From: a virus
Length of the DNA: 64,000 bases
Reading direction: 5' to 3' (one strand)
Virus record (IMG/VR): IMGVR_UViG_3300034101_003081
Coordinates: 1 to 64,000 of that record
Shown: positions 29,128 to 39,787 of the stretch, in pieces
How the letters are laid out: every line of letters begins with the position of its first letter
How positions within the stretch are numbered: the first letter of the stretch is position 1
Notes under the pieces: model-generated
What the model was told of the DNA's origin: nothing
The model's input: only the letters and a program-made list of their open reading frames with translations
The model's database searches: none
Program-made: the position numbers and the translations under genes

Positions 29128-29215
29128 TGTCGTTCACTCGTCTACGACAAGTATTGCAGATGTCGGGAGTGCTGTCAAGCGAAAAAAAGGGGGCTATGAC
29201 ACAAGTCAAAAACCC
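29128..29215 (-). promoter_or_regulatory. Early promoter cassette copy 1
   Basis: TTGACA(29173-29178)-17-AATACT(29150-29155); upstream TTGTGTCATAG; 87/88 identical to 29716-29803. Confidence 0.85.
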
Positions 29216-29217
29216 GG

Positions 29218-29667
29218 TCAGCCGTCGAACTCCGAAGTCTCGTACGCCTCAATCACGTCGTCGATGGTCAACTTGCCGGCAGCGATCAGAGACTTGACCG
29301 TGTACCGGCAGAGCGTCTCGACAGAAACCCCGCACTCAGCAGCGGCCTCGCGAAGAGTCGATGGCCCGCGGTCTTCGTGCGTGTCCAACTTGGCGAAGAC
29401 ATCGTGAACGTCTTGCGGCACGTTGTGGGCCAGAATCCGGCCGTCAGCGAAGGTGTACTCGACGTCCTTGTGAAGGACCGTGCTGCCGTTGGTCGTGACT
29501 TCCTGCTCGTAGTCCGTCGCGCGGATCGTCGTCCCGGCCTTGAAGGCCGCGACGCCGCGGACGCCGTACTTGCACCGCTTGTCGTAATGCGGATTCGGCA
29601 CGTCCTGCGAGAGCGTGAAGTACCGGCTCGACACGGGCTTGCGGGGTCCGATATTGACGTTGCTCAC
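29218..29667 (-). CDS. Hypothetical early protein flanked by 88-bp direct repeats
   Basis: AAGGAG RBS, GTG start. Confidence 0.65.
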   Translation of the reverse strand: MSNVNIGPRKPVSSRYFTLSQDVPNPHYDKRCKYGVRGVAAFKAGTTIRATDYEQEVTTNGSTVLHKDVEYTFADGRILAHNVPQDVHDVFAKLDTHEDRGPSTLREAAAECGVSVETLCRYTVKSLIAAGKLTIDDVIEAYETSEFDG

Positions 29668-33481: not shown

Positions 33482-34303
33482 TTAGCAAGACTCAAGACTC
33501 GGGAGGGAGACCCCGCACTGCTCGCAGAGTTTGGCGACCTCGGCGGCAAGTTCTGCCCTGGTGTGCGATCCAGCGCGGCGTGCCTCGCTCGTCGTGACGC
33601 AGCCCTCGTCGACCTCCAGGGCCGCCGGGTAGCAGTGACTTGGCAGGAACCCGAACCGCTCTTGGTGCGACCAGCACAGCCGACGCAGGCTCGCGTTGTG
33701 GCACAGGGCAAACGCGAGACGGTCGACGTCGACCGGCTGGTTCGCTGCCTTGACCAGCACCTCGACTTGGTGCTGGGCACGGCCGCCAGACGTCCGCGAC
33801 GTGGCCTTCGCGGCCCATAGTTCGACTCGCAGTCCCAGGCTTTCCAGAACGTCGACGGCGGCCAGGACAACGGCACCGCGAGCGAAGATCGCCTCGGCCG
33901 TCACGCCCGCACTGACGCCCAGGTTGGCGTACAGCCGGACGACCCGCTGCGACCCGAACCGGCCGGTCTCGTACTCGTTGTAAGAGCCGCAGGATTCCGG
34001 CTCGCCCGACAAGACGCGGCCGACGTCCACGAAGTCGCCGACGGCGTCCCAGGCGAACTGCTGGCAGGCGGCGACCTTCGAGGCCTCCACGTACTGATCG
34101 AGACTAGCCCGAATCTCGGCGACGCGAGCCGCACCCTCGTGCCAGCCAGCGTGCGCCAACTCGACGGCCTGCTCGAACGTGCGAGTGCCGAAGTGGCCTT
34201 CGCGGCCGACGTCGCGGCTGCTGATGCCCTTGACCTGCGGCACCTGGCGGACGTCCTCGACGAAGGCCTCGTACGAGTCAAAAGCGTGGCGGATGTGGCT
34301 CAT
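33482..34303 (-). CDS. AAA+ partner, degenerate vWA-like, paralog 3
   Basis: FGT.TF..AVELA..GW..GA, WD..GDF.DVGRVLSGEPE and AVDVLESLG.RVELW shared with two neighbours. Confidence 0.7.
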   Translation of the reverse strand: MSHIRHAFDSYEAFVEDVRQVPQVKGISSRDVGREGHFGTRTFEQAVELAHAGWHEGAARVAEIRASLDQYVEASKVAACQQFAWDAVGDFVDVGRVLSGEPESCGSYNEYETGRFGSQRVVRLYANLGVSAGVTAEAIFARGAVVLAAVDVLESLGLRVELWAAKATSRTSGGRAQHQVEVLVKAANQPVDVDRLAFALCHNASLRRLCWSHQERFGFLPSHCYPAALEVDEGCVTTSEARRAGSHTRAELAAEVAKLCEQCGVSLPSLESC

Positions 34304-34328
34304 GTTCGATGTCTCCTGGGGATGTCGG

Positions 34329-34383
34329 ATTATTGCCGACGTCCTGAATGAAGTCAAGCGGCCGGTTTGGCTCTATGACACAA
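34329..34383 (-). promoter_or_regulatory. Early-type promoter with shared upstream box
   Basis: TTGACT(34352-34357)-17-AATAAT(34329-34334); TTGTGTCATAG at 34373-34383. Confidence 0.7.
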
Positions 34384-35212
34384 CAATGGATTCCCGCTCT
34401 TCGGCCGAGAAAGACACGCCGCACGACTCGCAGACTTGCAAGACTCGGGCCGCCCTGGCCGCCGCCGTTGTGTCACTCTGTCTAACCTCGGGCGTCGCGA
34501 TCGCGCCCTCCTCGACGAGCAGCGGGCACGTCCCCGTGCAGTTGGGGCTGAATCCCAAGTCTTCCTCGACGCTGAAGAACAGCCGACGCAGGCTGGCGTT
34601 GTGGGCCAAAAAGAACGCGATCCGGTCAGGCTCGAACGGCTGGCTGGCATCTTTGGCCTTGACCAGCACGGTCAACTTGTCGCCTCTGATGCGACTGTGC
34701 GAGCCAGAGCCGAGCCACAACTCGACACGGTGGCCGAGCGTCTCCAGCACGTCGACAGCCGCAAACACGGCGGCTCCAGCACTGAAAATGCTCTCCTTCT
34801 TGACGCCGGCAATCGCGGACAGGTTCGCAACTAACTTGATCACTCTCGTCGACGGCTGCGAGTCTTGCCCCTCGCGGAACGATCCGCAGCACTCAGGCTC
34901 GCCAGACAATACGCGGCCAATGTCGATGAAGTCGCCTGTAGTGTCCCACTCCAGTTTGCACGACTTGGCCGCGACAGCCTTGTCGACGACGCTCTCCAAC
35001 TCGGCGCGGAGTTTGGTCAGCCGCTCGGCGCCTGCGGGCCAGCCCTTCGTGGCGAGTTCGACAGCCTCGCCGAACGTCGCCGTGCCATGAAACCCAGCCT
35101 CGACGCCGCAGTGCGAGACCTTGGAGTTCTCGCCCTTGGTGTCGGCGGCGGCAATGAAGTCGCCGATGGTCTCGAACGTCACGACCCGATGATCATCGTT
35201 CTTCTTCTTCAC
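34373..35212 (-). CDS. AAA+ partner, degenerate vWA-like, paralog 2
   Basis: Same motifs as the neighbours; AGGAG RBS. Confidence 0.7.
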   Translation of the reverse strand: MKKKNDDHRVVTFETIGDFIAAADTKGENSKVSHCGVEAGFHGTATFGEAVELATKGWPAGAERLTKLRAELESVVDKAVAAKSCKLEWDTTGDFIDIGRVLSGEPECCGSFREGQDSQPSTRVIKLVANLSAIAGVKKESIFSAGAAVFAAVDVLETLGHRVELWLGSGSHSRIRGDKLTVLVKAKDASQPFEPDRIAFFLAHNASLRRLFFSVEEDLGFSPNCTGTCPLLVEEGAIATPEVRQSDTTAAARAARVLQVCESCGVSFSAEERESIVVS

Positions 35213-35238
35213 GGTCTAGTCTCCTTGTCTTGGATTGC

Positions 35239-36069
35239 TCAGGCCTTGACCAGTTCTGCGATCTGCTCTTCGTCGAACGTGAGGCCGCACTTCTCGGCGA
35301 TCTTGATCACGTTCTCTTTCAGGCTCTTCGCCGACAGGTTGACCGCCGACAGAATCTCGTCGATCTCGACCGTGCCCTGACGCTTGCCGTAATCGGCGAC
35401 CGACGCTGGGTGGCAGTTCGACGGGCAGTGCCCGTACAACTCCATCCAGCGAAAACCGAACCGCCGGAAGAACGACGGGTGTGCGACGGTGAACGCGAGG
35501 CGGTCAGGGTCGACGATCTCGCCAGGCCGCTTGGCGACGACGTTCGCCGTGAGGTGAAGGCCGTGACCGCTCGTCGCCGTCGAGCAGATGACTTCGCAGC
35601 GAATGCCGCACGACTCAAGCAAGTCGACCGCCACCAGCACGGCCACGCCGCGGGCCGCGATCGCGTCGGCGCTGACGGCCCCGCTCACGCACTGATTGAG
35701 CCGTATCGACACGACCTTGGACGACACCGTCTCGCCGTTCTCAAACTCCTGGCCGCAGCACTCAGGCTCGCCCGACAGGACACGGCCAACGTCGATGAAG
35801 TCGCCAGTGACGTCCCAGCCGAACGTCCGAGACTTGGCAGTCTTGGCGGCGGAAATAAACGCCGAGAGTCCATCGCGGTGCTTGTTCACGCGGGCGACGC
35901 CGTCTGCCCAGCCCCTCGCGAACAACTCGCCAGCCTCGGCGTAGGTGTCCGTCCAGAAAAACTCCTTCCGGCCTGTGGCCTGGCTGTTCTGGCTCACGCC
36001 CTTGTCGTCGCGGGCGAGGTCTGCCAGGTAGTCGCTCACGGTCTCGTAGTCTTTGACGATCGTCTTCAC
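35239..36069 (-). CDS. AAA+ partner, degenerate vWA-like, paralog 1
   Basis: Same motifs; GTG start with AGGAG RBS. Confidence 0.7.
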   Translation of the reverse strand: MKTIVKDYETVSDYLADLARDDKGVSQNSQATGRKEFFWTDTYAEAGELFARGWADGVARVNKHRDGLSAFISAAKTAKSRTFGWDVTGDFIDVGRVLSGEPECCGQEFENGETVSSKVVSIRLNQCVSGAVSADAIAARGVAVLVAVDLLESCGIRCEVICSTATSGHGLHLTANVVAKRPGEIVDPDRLAFTVAHPSFFRRFGFRWMELYGHCPSNCHPASVADYGKRQGTVEIDEILSAVNLSAKSLKENVIKIAEKCGLTFDEEQIAELVKA

Positions 36070-36158
36070 TGGGATGGTTCTCCTGGGCGTTGGCTTGTGT
36101 CCCCGCTCCCCGGCCGGCAAGCCCATAGCCAGCCGGGGAGCGTATCCAGACAACTCGA

Positions 36159-37424
36159 CTAGAGGTTCGCCTCGATCTTGCTGCGGGTGTCCTTGTCGAG
36201 CCCCTTCCAGACGCAGGCGTCGAGAGTGGCATCGACGGGCCAGCCAGCCCGAAGCAGGGCGACGCCGTTGATGTTCGCACGCGGCGAGACGATCACCCGC
36301 ACGCCCTTGCCGAGCGAGGCAATGGCATTACGGACGGCGACGACCTTCTTCACGTACTCGGCGACCCGCTCCTCGGCGACGGCCTTCTCGACGTCGGTCT
36401 TCACCGAATGCACCTTGATCCCCTTGGCCTGCGGGGCCTCGGCGAACAACTCCAGGGACAGGCCGCAGGCCGCCGCCTCGATCCGGGGATCGTACTGCCA
36501 GTCGACCAGCACGAACCGATCGAGCGTCGCCGCGTCGATCTGCTGCCGTCCCACGTACTGCCGATCGGCACCCTGCCCGATCGTGTTGGCACCGGCGATC
36601 AGCACGAAGTCGGCATGCTTCGCGACGACGGCGTCGGGGAACGAGGCGTGCCCGTTGGCGAGCAACTGATTGATCACGACCAGCACGGCCGGATTGGCCG
36701 CGTCGACCTCGTCGAGCAGGAACACGCCACCATGCTCGTAGGCGTCGCGGAGTTGCGTCCGCACCACCTTGCCGTTGGCGTCGTGGTAGCCGAGCAGGCT
36801 CGACTCGGACGTCTGCGGGCCGACCGACTTGGCGTAGAACGGCAGGCCGAGCGAGTCCGCGACGGCATGCGCCGACGACGTCTTGCCAGAGCCGGCAGGC
36901 CCGACGAGCCAGCAATTCCTGCGGGCAGCAACGGCGGCGAGCAAGGCCTCAAACTGGACGTGCTGGACGCCCACGTCGTTGGCGACGCCCTCGACGGTCA
37001 CGACCTCGATCCGCTGCGGCACCAGGGCCGCGATCCGCTGATCGACGATCGCCGTGACCTCGTCGATATCGACGCCGCCCTTGCCGCCCTCGGAGGTCAC
37101 GAGCCCGGTGTCGCGGACGGCCTCGGCGATGATCTCGGCGAGGGAACGATTGCCGCGACCGCCGTCGATCTCCGAGTCAGACTCGACCTCGCCGTTACCG
37201 TGTCCAGACTTCTCGGCACCGCTCGCCCACAGGCTCAGGCCCCGGCTCGTCTTGACGACCTGCTCGCCGTTGGGTCCGACGAGATGGAAGAGACGGGACT
37301 GGCGACCCTTCTCGGTCTCGCGGGTCTCGACCCGCTCGATCGTGAACTCCCTGCCGTCCGCGACGGTGATGACGGCGCCGACCTTGTACGACTGCCACGA
37401 GTTGTTGATGACGTTGTTGTTCAC
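36159..37424 (-). CDS. MoxR/CbbQ/CobS-type AAA+ ATPase
   Basis: GPAGSGKT, FLLDEVD, GANT, DAATLDRF and VSPRA motifs. Confidence 0.9.
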   Translation of the reverse strand: MNNNVINNSWQSYKVGAVITVADGREFTIERVETRETEKGRQSRLFHLVGPNGEQVVKTSRGLSLWASGAEKSGHGNGEVESDSEIDGGRGNRSLAEIIAEAVRDTGLVTSEGGKGGVDIDEVTAIVDQRIAALVPQRIEVVTVEGVANDVGVQHVQFEALLAAVAARRNCWLVGPAGSGKTSSAHAVADSLGLPFYAKSVGPQTSESSLLGYHDANGKVVRTQLRDAYEHGGVFLLDEVDAANPAVLVVINQLLANGHASFPDAVVAKHADFVLIAGANTIGQGADRQYVGRQQIDAATLDRFVLVDWQYDPRIEAAACGLSLELFAEAPQAKGIKVHSVKTDVEKAVAEERVAEYVKKVVAVRNAIASLGKGVRVIVSPRANINGVALLRAGWPVDATLDACVWKGLDKDTRSKIEANL

Positions 37425-37479
37425 TGGGCTTCTCCTTTTGAAAACCAAATCGACCGGGCTGTGTGATCGAGTGACGTCC

Positions 37480-37570
37480 ACTCGTCATGCGACAAGTATC
37501 TCCGCTGTCGGGGATGCTGTCAAGCGGATTCTTTTGACTATGACACAAGACGCAAAAACCCCTGTTTTTC
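37480..37570 (-). promoter_or_regulatory. Early promoter cassette copy 3 (diverged)
   Basis: TTGACA(37518-37523)-17-GATACT(37495-37500); TTGTGTCATAG at 37538-37548; CGACA-N11-TGTCG retained. Confidence 0.8.
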
Positions 37571-37868: not shown

Positions 37869-39182
37869 TTAGGCCTGTGCAAGAGCCTCGCACTCGACGA
37901 TGTAGCGAATCACGTTTTCAGCGAAGCCGTCAACGTGAGTCCAACCGTCGTGATAGCCGACGCCATGCTGATACGGCGCGACGTTGATCATGTACGCCGC
38001 ATCTGCCTTCGGGCGCACAACACGGTCATGCGATTGTTCGTCCGTGACCACGATCAGGCGATCGTGGTCGAACTTCTCGACAGCCCGAATCGCTTCGCCG
38101 AGCAGCGTCCCGCCTCGCGGCTGCGAGAGTTGCACGGCCTCGACGCCAGACAGGCCACGACGAGGAGGCACCTCGACCACTCTGTCGGAGAATGAAAAGA
38201 CACGAAGGTCGTCGCAGTTGAGTATTGCCGCGAGCGACGCCGCTGCGTCAAGTCTCGTCAAGTCTGCGCGGCTCGACAGAGGCACGTCCATCGAGCCCGA
38301 GACGTCGACCAGCACGATCGTCTTGCCTGAGAGCCTCGGCAGTTCGTGGATCGACGCGAGCATCGCGATGTCGAGCGTCGGCTCCAGCGACGGCGCGGCC
38401 TTGGCCGCAGCGACGAAACGAAACGGAAGCACTCGCTCGGCGCCGAGCCTGCCCAAGATCGCGTTCTTGATCAGCGACGTCTCGACGCCAGCCTCGACCA
38501 TGTTCCGTAGGTTGCGGAGCAGGGCGAGGTAGCCGATCTTCTGCTCGCGGATCAGTCGCTCGAACGTGGACTTCTTGTCAGCGCCGCCTGAGAGCGAGAC
38601 TTCCCACGTATCGGGAGCAACGAGCGTTCCCTCGACGAGCGATCGCCACAGGCTTGCCTGCTCAGGTGTGTCGGGCTTGGCATGGCACAGAAATAAGACG
38701 TCGCGAAGTTTGATAGCCGACGGCTTGTTGTACTTGGCAAGTTGGTAGGCGTTGAACTTCTTGAACGCCGCCGCGAGGCCTTTCTTCATCGGGTTCGAGA
38801 GCGGCTTCTTGCCGTCGGCCCAGTAGATGGCGACGAGTTCTGCGAGTTCGTCCGCTCGCTGGATCGTGTCGACGATCGCCTGCGAGACGAGTTTGCCGGA
38901 GCCGTGCTTGATCAGCCCCTTGAGCAGGAGCAGCGGAACGTGCCGCAAATGAAACTTTGAGCGAGCCTCGACGGCGAGAGATGCGATCTCGTCGGGCGTG
39001 ACCTTCTCGCACAACGAGAGAATGCGATCCGCAACATCGACGCCATCCTCGTAGTGCGTCGACTCCCACAGCAGGCACGTCAGGACGGTGCGTCGCAGTT
39101 CCTGGCTGGGCGTGATCCGCACAGCCGGAGCGCCCTCGTGCGTGACTGCGGCATTCGAGGCGGGAGCGGTGTTGAGTCGCAC
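37869..39182 (-). CDS. rsr: Ro60/Rsr TROVE-domain RNA-binding protein with C-terminal vWA
   Basis: THEGAPA, LLWE..HYEDG, RADE..E, YQLAKY, LRDVLFLCH.KP, TWEV.LS, ALLRNLRN, LPFRF, VDVSGSM (MIDAS) and TDEQ motifs; GTG start with AGGAG RBS. Confidence 0.92.
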   Translation of the reverse strand: MRLNTAPASNAAVTHEGAPAVRITPSQELRRTVLTCLLWESTHYEDGVDVADRILSLCEKVTPDEIASLAVEARSKFHLRHVPLLLLKGLIKHGSGKLVSQAIVDTIQRADELAELVAIYWADGKKPLSNPMKKGLAAAFKKFNAYQLAKYNKPSAIKLRDVLFLCHAKPDTPEQASLWRSLVEGTLVAPDTWEVSLSGGADKKSTFERLIREQKIGYLALLRNLRNMVEAGVETSLIKNAILGRLGAERVLPFRFVAAAKAAPSLEPTLDIAMLASIHELPRLSGKTIVLVDVSGSMDVPLSSRADLTRLDAAASLAAILNCDDLRVFSFSDRVVEVPPRRGLSGVEAVQLSQPRGGTLLGEAIRAVEKFDHDRLIVVTDEQSHDRVVRPKADAAYMINVAPYQHGVGYHDGWTHVDGFAENVIRYIVECEALAQA

Positions 39183-39213
39183 GGCTGGGCTCCTGGCTGA
39201 TGAGGAAGAGAAA

Positions 39214-39288
39214 TGCTGGCGAGAACAGCGAGGCCGGGGGATCAAACAGCCTTAGTGTGAAGTAACCGGACTCTGCACTACGCCAGCA
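39214..39288 (-). ncRNA. Y RNA-like small RNA B
   Basis: 8-bp terminal stem TGCTGGCG/CGCCAGCA enclosing TAGTGCAG...GGTTACTTC...TGTTCT; directly upstream of rsr. Confidence 0.7.
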
Positions 39289-39299
39289 AGGCGACAAGA

Positions 39300-39368
39300 G
39301 CCGCGAGAACAAACGGACACGGCGTGGTTTCTATCGCAAAGAAGTAGCCGTGGCCTGCACTACGCGGC
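39300..39368 (-). ncRNA. Y RNA-like small RNA A
   Basis: Stem GCCGCG/CGCGGC enclosing TAGTGCAG...GGCTACTTC...TGTTCT; starts about at the predicted TSS. Confidence 0.7.
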
Positions 39369-39376
39369 CGAGAGGC

Positions 39377-39404
39377 AGTGTACGGATACGCACACTGCGT
39401 GCAA
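39377..39404 (-). promoter_or_regulatory. Promoter for the Y RNA-rsr unit, overlapped by the 15-bp operator motif
   Basis: TTGCAC-16-TACACT; GCGTATCCGTACACT spans the spacer and -10. Confidence 0.7.
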
Positions 39405-39412
39405 GAAAGTTT

Positions 39413-39787
39413 TCAGCCCACGCCGGCGGGCAGAGGCTGCCAGTGCGTGGGCTGCGGCTTGAACGTCGCGAGCGAATCAGTCCTGACGAACACGCCGTCC
39501 TCGCCGCAGCAGCCGACTGAGACGGCGTCTTTGACGCAGACTAGCACGGGTTCGTCGACGTCAGGGAGCCGAGACTTGGCCGCGACCCACGGAGACTTGG
39601 ACTTCTTTGGCTTTCGCTTCGGCGAATCGGACTCGACGAGCGTCATGCTCAGTTCAAGCCGCGACGTGCCTGAGTATTCCTGAGTCACGGATACGCCCGT
39701 GATCCACCCCGTGACGTTGTTGGGCAACGCCCCGCCGTACTGAGACGCGACATAGTCGAGGATCGCGGACGAGAGTTCTTCGTTCAT
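39413..39787 (-). CDS. DUF551-like domain protein
   Basis: W....RLP....VLV...PTHWQPLP. Confidence 0.65.
   Translation of the reverse strand: MNEELSSAILDYVASQYGGALPNNVTGWITGVSVTQEYSGTSRLELSMTLVESDSPKRKPKKSKSPWVAAKSRLPDVDEPVLVCVKDAVSVGCCGEDGVFVRTDSLATFKPQPTHWQPLPAGVG

What the first reader, a model, noticed from the sequence alone, without database searches (positions are those of the whole stretch)
37869..39404. Phage Ro60 with two tandem minimal Y-RNA-like genes under their own promoter
Seen: promoter, then RNA A (39300-39368), RNA B (39214-39288), then rsr. Both RNAs keep GCG-UAGUGCAG...GG(U/C)UACUUC...UGUUCU-CGC, while the terminal stems (GCCGCG vs UGCUGGCG) and inner stems (CACGGC/GCCGUG vs CCGG/CCGG) differ with pairing retained. 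The apical loops differ and lack a tRNA-like domain. Known: bacterial Ro60 binds adjacent Y RNAs, often with a tRNA-like effector module, and some phages carry both. Inference: effector-less or variable-loop Y RNAs giving two distinct RNPs, perhaps as decoys or adaptors against RNA-targeting defence. Ro60's vWA domain next to the MoxR module hints at coupling.
Basis: partly seen in the sequence, partly recalled or inferred. Interest (0 to 1): 0.8.

Follow-up and report, generated by a model that had tools for sequence, protein, structure and literature searches.

The report
Phage Ro60 with two minimal Y-RNAs
A 97-kb uncultured phage carries a Ro60-type RNA-binding protein gene preceded by two short hairpin RNA genes that are very probably its partner "Y RNAs"; this layout is already known, and the unusual point is that neither RNA has the usual tRNA-like part.

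Summary
On the minus strand lie a conserved promoter-like site, RNA A (39369-39300), RNA B (39288-39214) and then rsr. The true rsr start is GTG 39182, not the ORF start at 39245.

A covariance model built only from other phages finds exactly these two sites in the 64-kb window (E 3.8e-14 and 3.3e-7). The same scaffold sits beside rsr, on its strand, in 82 of 84 related loci. Its structure covaries strongly: 92% of cells are paired against 67% in shuffles, and 15 of 16 pairs show double changes. The window's odd UAG.../...UGUUCU is a compensatory GG:CC to AG:CU change.

Most relatives pair a minimal unit with a tRNA-like YrlA unit. This phage (99% complete) has no tRNA-like unit anywhere in its genome. 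At least 14 of 80 sampled loci are the same, in several separate lineages.

Rfam 15 does not detect the minimal units.

The closest solved protein is Thermus phage phiLo phiRo60, which binds two Y-like RNAs and host PNPase.

MoxR coupling is not supported: the ATPase adjoins rsr only in this clade.

This is a real new member of a known kind, of moderate interest. The scan has noted phage Ro60/Y-RNA arrays many times before on other DNA.

The parts
39399..39404 (-). -35-like hexamer TTGCAC
   Evidence: Read. It is kept as TTGCAC in L001 and TTGCTC in L002 while the 16-nt spacer varies. The consensus scan did not flag it.
39377..39382 (-). -10-like hexamer TACACT, 7-8 nt before the 5' end of RNA A
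   Evidence: Identical in the window, L001 and L002. That it acts as a promoter is inferred, not shown.
39300..39369 (-). RNA A, a canonical minimal Y RNA. It has a terminal stem, a bulged U, an AG:CU pair, an internal loop (UGCA opposite GUUUGUU), a 9-bp helix, CUACUUC, and a 4-bp apical hairpin with a 7-nt loop.
   Evidence: Fold -29.4 kcal/mol, z -3.2. R2 scores 62.9 bits, E 3.8e-14. Within the clade, the terminal stem shows a compensatory C:G to U:A change between the window and L001/L002.
39214..39288 (-). RNA B, the same scaffold with an 8-bp terminal stem and a 21-24-nt apical insert specific to this lineage
   Evidence: Fold -30.4 kcal/mol, z -2.9. R2 scores 36.3 bits, E 3.3e-7. The unit is kept in L001 and L002.
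39202..39213 (-). Pyrimidine-rich tract UUUCUCUUCCUC directly after the terminal stem of RNA B; a possible leaky terminator
   Evidence: The relatives have clearer U runs at this spot, UCUUUUUU and UCCUUUUUU. Terminator function is inferred.
37869..39182 (-). rsr, a Ro60 orthologue of 437 aa with TROVE and vWA domains and an intact MIDAS DxSxS motif. The RBS AGGAG lies at 39194-39190.
   Evidence: Pfam TROVE 2.2e-14 and VWA_2. PHROG 850 at 8e-50. PDB 9KOP/9L5Y at 6e-30 over residues 12-431. Invariant D293, S295 and S297.

Best explanation
These are two genuine Y-RNA genes, the non-coding partner RNAs of the phage's own Ro60 (Rsr) protein.

How it most likely works, with each step marked:
1. 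A sigma-70-like promoter drives one transcript, A-B-(rsr). The stem of RNA B plus its U-rich tail probably terminates part of it, and read-through gives the rsr mRNA. The two ~70-nt hairpins are then released by processing, as for M. smegmatis YrlA/YrlB. (Inferred.)
2. Rsr docks on the conserved closing helix, which both RNAs share with about 170 related units: a terminal stem, a bulged U, a 2-bp step, and an internal loop holding the invariant G and A of the published 'CGAA' motif opposite GYUUGUU. (The conservation and covariation are shown; binding is inferred.)
3. The apical parts differ, so two distinct RNPs would form. RNA A carries the apical hairpin conserved in the minimal class. RNA B carries a lineage-specific insert in the position where most relatives have a tRNA-like module. 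(The anatomy is shown; distinct RNPs are inferred.)
4. By analogy with D. radiodurans and S. Typhimurium RYPER and with phage phiLo phiRo60-Yrl-PNPase, the RNPs most likely engage a host exoribonuclease such as PNPase and redirect or dampen RNA decay during infection, here without any tRNA mimicry. (Analogy only.)
For: - Protein identity. Four of the eight basic residues whose mutation weakened Yrl2 binding in phiRo60 are kept: K141, K142, R169 and R178 there correspond to K133, K134, R160 and K169 here. K133, R160 and K169 are invariant in alignment A1.
- RNA identity: model R2, built with the window clade left out, hits only A and B in the window.
- Association with rsr: model R1 gives 173 hits in 84 Rsr loci, all on the rsr strand and directly flanking the gene. 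Eighty-two of the 84 loci have a hit, and the two without are cut off upstream.
- Structure: 92.3% of cells are paired against 66.6% in shuffles. Fifteen of 16 pairs have changes on both sides. No shuffle of 500 reaches the observed values, and slid registers give 37-52%.
- The window clade's GG:CC to AG:CU change is compensatory (columns 12/77).
- The same scaffold carries the tRNA-like YrlA module in relatives. Rfam YrlA scores 37-43 bits in L003-L005 and L062, and the cultured Xanthomonas phage 10KY502B has five alternating units.
- Published precedents: Chen 2014 (PMC4201824) reported Rsr-bound hairpin Y RNAs without a full tRNA module, and YrlA and YrlB processed from one precursor upstream of rsr. 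Hu 2025 (PMC12135203) reported that phage phiRo60 binds two Y-like RNAs and forms a ternary complex with host PNPase that slows RNA degradation.
Against: - There are no expression or binding data for this phage, and its host is unknown.
- The promoter is weak by consensus and the scan did not call it.
- The window RNAs read UGCA where the published Ro-contact motif reads CGAA. Only the family-invariant G and A are kept.
- R137 and K193 of phiRo60, whose mutation also weakened binding, are S129 and E184 here.
- RNA B scores much lower than RNA A, and its apex has no convincing fold.
- The PNPase step rests wholly on analogy.
Confidence: 0.85

Rival explanations
1. The hairpins act only in cis, as leader elements of the rsr mRNA (an attenuator, or an autoregulatory Rsr-binding site), and never accumulate as separate RNAs.
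For: Only 31 nt lie between RNA B and the rsr start, so rsr must be co-transcribed with them. The stem of RNA B is followed by a U-rich tract in the window and in both relatives.
Against: The same units lie downstream of rsr in L048, L081, L085 and phiLo. They form arrays of three to seven units. [quoted passage not shown] A cis role could exist alongside a trans role.
Confidence: 0.08
2. They are decaying remnants of tRNA-like YrlA genes that lost their module and no longer function.
For: Most relatives carry a tRNA-like unit in the position next to rsr. RNA B scores low and its apex is poorly structured.
Against: Both units are retained, with paired stems and compensatory changes, in three phages whose Rsr proteins differ by about 14%. 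Exactly two tRNA-less units also recur in other complete genomes: G002 at 98% and G003 at 100% completeness. The scaffold helices of A and B are intact.
Confidence: 0.05
3. They are chance hairpins or generic terminator or repeat elements unrelated to Ro60.
For: GC-rich intergenic DNA folds readily, and the fold z-scores alone are modest at about -3.
Against: An independent covariance model finds only these two sites in 64 kb. All 173 family hits sit next to rsr on its strand. Covariation is strong.
Confidence: 0.02

Closest known systems
Thermus phage phiLo phiRo60 with Yrl1 and Yrl2 (Hu et al. 2025, NAR, PMC12135203; PDB 9KOP, 9L5Y)
   Same: A phage-encoded Ro60 with two short stem-bulge-stem Y-like RNAs beside the gene, and no tRNA-like module described. 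It is the closest solved structure by sequence, at E 6e-30 over the full length. In vitro it binds both RNAs and forms a ternary complex with host PNPase that slows RNA degradation.
   Different: About 31% protein identity. The published RNAs were picked by a CGAA motif in the upstream gap. The window RNAs read UGCA at that place and belong to a GGUUACUUC-type scaffold. In phiLo itself that scaffold occurs downstream of the gene. I could not compare those units with Yrl1/2 because the published sequences are not held.
M. smegmatis YrlA plus YrlB upstream of rsr; S. Typhimurium YrlB; D. radiodurans Yrn2 (Chen et al. 2014, PMC4201824)
   Same: Two Y RNAs on the rsr strand, processed from one precursor upstream of rsr. 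One of them is a long hairpin without a complete tRNA module.
   Different: In all three species one partner RNA is tRNA-like. Here neither is. YrlB had no detectable relatives outside S. enterica serovars, whereas the minimal unit here belongs to a large conserved family.
Rfam YrlA (RF02553)
   Same: The closing scaffold looks homologous: compare cGGCGAAUGC...GGaaCUAC...cUUGUC-GCCG in the Rfam consensus with GGUGAAG...GGUUACUUC...CUUGUUCC in R2.
   Different: The tRNA-like core that carries most of the Rfam score is absent. There is no hit even at E<=10 locally or genome-wide.

Membership tests
Bacterial/phage Y RNA (Chen 2014 criteria) | Encoded within 4 kb of a Ro60 orthologue and on the same strand | tested here: met
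   RNA B ends 31 nt and RNA A 117 nt upstream of the rsr start, both on the minus strand. The same holds for all 173 family hits.
Bacterial/phage Y RNA (Chen 2014 criteria) | A long stem formed by the 5' and 3' ends, with a bulged or looped conserved Ro-binding region | tested here: met
   Folds. Consensus structure with covariation in 15 of 16 pairs. Bulged U and invariant G14, A16 and G17.
Bacterial/phage Y RNA (Chen 2014 criteria) | GNCGAAN0-1G / CGAA motif near the 5' end | tested here: inconclusive
   The family reads G-G-Y-G-N-A-G. The window reads AGUGCAG, keeping only the invariant G and A. Sister phage L002 unit A and both L015 units read GCGAAG.
Bacterial/phage Y RNA (Chen 2014 criteria) | Bound and stabilised by Rsr in vivo | not testable with these tools
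   Needs a pull-down or EMSA.
YrlA (Rfam RF02553) | A tRNA-like module (T arm, D arm, acceptor-like hairpin) and a score at or above the 69-bit gathering threshold | tested here: not met
   No hit in the window at the gathering threshold, at E<=0.5 for the whole window, or at E<=10 locally. None in the genome. No T-arm hairpin near rsr. ARAGORN finds nothing in the window.
Ro60/Rsr protein | TROVE/HEAT ring plus a C-terminal vWA domain with a MIDAS motif | tested here: met
   Pfam TROVE and VWA_2. Full-length match to phiRo60. DxSxS invariant.
   The AAA+ and DUF7192 genes are next to rsr in only 2 of 84 loci, both in the window's own clade. The ATPase has three DUF7192 partners of its own.

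The most novel reading that the evidence does not exclude
tRNA-less two-unit sets may be a recurring and functionally distinct Ro60 RNP configuration in phages, with at least 6 well-supported transitions on the Rsr tree. In this reading the conserved apical hairpin of the minimal unit (UACUUC, UUC/GAA stem, A-rich strand) is itself the effector-binding element. The tRNA-like module would then be dispensable for the core phage function. The minimal unit would also be a distinct, widespread RNA family that Rfam does not yet hold.
Probability: 0.3. Interest if true: 0.55.

Novelty: new member of a known kind. Interest (0 to 1): 0.38.

Why it matters
The locus adds a clean natural case in which a nearly complete phage genome keeps Ro60 and its docking RNAs but has no tRNA-like module. 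[quoted passage not shown]

It also yields a well-covarying model of the Ro60-docking scaffold, which Rfam's YrlA model does not capture. That model can annotate many unannotated or misannotated phage RNAs; parts of them are currently called tRNA-Thr or tRNA-Ser.

The scaffold gives concrete positions to mutate in binding tests: the bulged U, the GG:CC or AG:CU step, and the invariant G and A. It does not by itself reveal what phage Ro60 RNPs do.

Tried and rejected
- Rfam found nothing for the window at the gathering threshold or at permissive thresholds. It also does not recognise minimal units in relatives.
- The sigma-70 and terminator consensus scan found nothing around the locus.
- A scan of genome contigs with the single protein gave one distant MAG only. 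I therefore could not test whether the minimal unit also flanks chromosomal bacterial rsr genes.
- Two regex unit-finders were too loose or had the wrong offset. I replaced them with an anchored helix search and then with covariance models.
- MoxR coupling is rejected.
- RtcB, the usual bacterial neighbour of rsr, is absent from the phage.
- I looked for anticodon-loop mimicry in the 7-nt apical loops. Among the 14 seven-nt loops listed, U at position 2 is common but the loops are U-rich overall, and only 8 have a purine at position 6. I counted this by eye, so it is not convincing and I make no claim.
- The only tRNA call in the genome, Trp-CCA at 86057-86129, is 47 kb away, has a poor D arm and has no Y scaffold around it.
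- I could not match the published phiLo Yrl1/2 to the units I found, because no supplementary text is held.

Full report
**What is there**

The window is the first 64 kb of a 97,385-bp IMG/VR virus record that CheckV rates 99% complete. Reading 5' to 3' on the minus strand, the locus runs:
- the end of a DUF551 gene, with its stop at 39413;
- TTGCAC (39404-39399), a 16-nt spacer and TACACT (39382-39377);
- RNA A (39369-39300) about 7 nt further on;
- an 11-nt spacer;
- RNA B (39288-39214);
- a pyrimidine tract, UUUCUCUUCCUC;
- AGGAG (39194-39190) and GTG 39182, which opens a 437-aa gene ending at 37869.

The listed ORF start at TTG 39245 would run through RNA B. Homologues align from the GTG.

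The protein has a TROVE domain and a vWA domain. It matches PHROG 850 'RNA-binding protein' at 8e-50. It matches only one solved protein, phiRo60 of Thermus phage phiLo (9KOP/9L5Y), over residues 12-431 at E 6e-30. The MIDAS DxSxS motif is invariant in an alignment of seven relatives.

**Is it more than chance?**

The stronger test is comparative.

I collected 80 IMG/VR loci that encode relatives of this Rsr (428 exist), plus several cultured phages. A very regular ~70-nt unit recurs next to the gene:
- a terminal stem;
- a bulged U;
- GG;
- Y-G-N-A-G;
- a 7-9-bp helix;
- (U/A/C)UACUUC;
- a short apex;
- the return strand of the helix;
- CGYUUGUUCC;
- the return strand of the terminal stem.

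On 49 units that exclude the window and its close relatives, 92.3% of cells are paired against 66.6% in shuffles. Fifteen of 16 pairs have changes on both sides. No shuffle of 500 reaches any observed measure, and sliding the partner strand drops pairing to 37-52%.

A covariance model from those 49 units (R2) finds exactly two sites in the 64-kb window, RNA A (62.9 bits, E 3.8e-14) and RNA B (36.3 bits, E 3.3e-7), and nothing else up to E = 10. The whole genome has no third copy.

The window clade's departure from the consensus, UAG... and ...UGUUCU in place of UGG... and ...UGUUCC, is a double change that keeps a pair (G:C to A:U) in all seven clade sequences. Within the clade, RNA A's terminal stem shows a further C:G to U:A swap.

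**Association with rsr**

Model R1, which includes the window units, gives 173 hits at E<=0.01 in 84 loci. Every hit is on the rsr strand. Almost all lie in the few hundred bases upstream, and a few lie just downstream. Eighty-two of the 84 loci have at least one hit, and the two without are cut off on the upstream side.

**Relation to known Y RNAs**

In most relatives the same scaffold also carries an ~85-nt insert with a T arm, an acceptor-like hairpin and a D arm. This is the tRNA-like YrlA type.
- Rfam's YrlA model hits those units below threshold, at 37-43 bits.
- In two cultured phages (L006, L007), parts of the units are annotated as tRNA-Thr and tRNA-Ser.
- Xanthomonas phage 10KY502B has five units that alternate between tRNA-like and minimal.

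Rfam 15 never hits the minimal units, and it finds nothing in the window even at E<=10.

Chen et al. [quoted passage not shown] They found no YrlB relatives outside Salmonella serovars. So the kind is known, but the conserved minimal family seen here is not in Rfam or in the papers I could search.

**What is particular here**

Neither RNA has a tRNA-like module, and the nearly complete genome has none elsewhere:
- there is no RF02553 hit;
- there is no T-arm hairpin apart from one poor tRNA-Trp kb away, which has no Y scaffold around it.

This state is a minority but it recurs.
- At least 14 of the 80 IMG/VR loci with full flanks have no T-arm hairpin on the rsr strand. The regex over-calls T arms, so this is a lower bound.
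- Three further records that are 98% complete or better have exactly two scaffold units and no YrlA hit: G001 (92.9 kb with terminal repeats, a close relative of the window), G002 and G003.
- On a quick Rsr tree the tRNA-less loci are scattered. Well-supported branches force at least 6 changes. The careful tree search did not finish, so this figure is provisional.

RNA A is a canonical minimal unit. It includes the apical element that most minimal units share, a UUC...GAA mini-hairpin followed by an A-rich strand, found in 42 of 57 units against about 19 in shuffles. RNA B has a clade-specific apex of 21-24 nt in the position where relatives usually carry the tRNA-like module. Other tRNA-less phages have yet other inserts there.

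**Likely mechanism**

Shown:
- the protein family;
- the RNA family, its structure and its linkage to rsr;
- partial conservation of the basic residues whose mutation weakened Yrl2 binding in phiRo60. K141, K142, R169 and R178 there correspond to K133, K134, R160 and K169 here, while R137, R163, R173 and K193 are not kept.

Inferred:
- a sigma-70-type promoter produces an A-B-rsr transcript;
- the stem of RNA B plus its U-rich tail ends part of that transcript;
- processing releases the two hairpins;
- Rsr docks on the shared bulged helix;
- the different apices give two distinct RNPs.

By analogy only: the RNPs engage a host exoribonuclease such as PNPase, as in D. radiodurans and Salmonella RYPER and in phiLo, where the complex slowed PNPase. 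A Ro60-like protein of phage Bas63 was reported to counter the Ppl defence system (PMC11482910), so an anti-defence role is possible but untested here.

The AAA+ (MoxR-class) gene and the DUF7192 genes downstream are adjacent to rsr only in the window's own clade. Coupling to the Rsr vWA domain is therefore not supported. The phage has no RtcB.

**Verdict**

This is a real, well-supported pair of Y RNAs with phage Ro60. It is a new member of a known kind. The useful additions are the tRNA-less state in a complete genome and a family-level model of the docking scaffold. The scan has already noted phage Ro60/Y-RNA arrays many times on other DNA.

Noticed in passing
L095 1146-1403 minus strand (Thermus phage phiLo MH673673, about 29160-29417): Two units of the GGGUACUUC scaffold lie immediately downstream of phiRo60 on its strand, each preceded by a TTGACA-type promoter. 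One matches R2 at 26 bits (E 3.5e-4 over the genome); the other matches only over the inner helix. The stretch from unit 1 to unit 2 overlaps the annotated CDS phiLo_25. The published Yrl1/Yrl2 were described as coming from the upstream gap, so these may be additional, or possibly the family-type, Y RNAs of that phage.
   Followed up: partly
L006 2837-2904 (OQ622092) and L007 2805-2879 (ON529850): The 'tRNA-Thr' and 'tRNA-Ser' features annotated just upstream of rsr in Xanthomonas phage 10KY502B and Brevundimonas phage Gurke appear to be pieces of tRNA-like Y RNAs, not free-standing tRNA genes. For the Xanthomonas feature the model hit (L006 2830-2967) and the sequence confirm this; the Gurke feature was judged by eye and has no model hit. 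The tRNA-like modules carry anticodon-type loops of the form CU-NNN-AA.
   Followed up: partly
window 39375-39398: A 10-bp inverted repeat with one mismatch (GCAGTGTGCG / CGTACACTGC, 4-nt gap) covers the promoter spacer and the -10 hexamer. It could be an operator. Relative L001 keeps only about 6 of the 10 positions.
   Followed up: partly
window 39414-39458: A GC-rich hairpin (CAGCCCACGC ... GCGTGGGCTG) spans the last codons and the stop of the DUF551 gene just upstream of the Y-RNA promoter. It may end upstream transcription, but it has no clear U tract.
   Followed up: no
own genome 86057-86129, minus strand (beyond the window): The only tRNA call in the phage is a tRNA-Trp(CCA) with a weak D arm. 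It is not embedded in a Y scaffold.
   Followed up: partly
window 33482-37481: One AAA_5 ATPase gene is followed by three tandem DUF7192 paralogues that are 35-39% identical to each other's homologues in the relatives. This is already the subject of another finding in this scan.
   Followed up: partly
L042 2379-2464, L043 2353-2451, L079 2371-2434: In other tRNA-less phages the second unit carries unrelated small inserts, for example a GC stem with a UUCG loop. This suggests the apical slot of the scaffold is freely swappable.
   Followed up: partly
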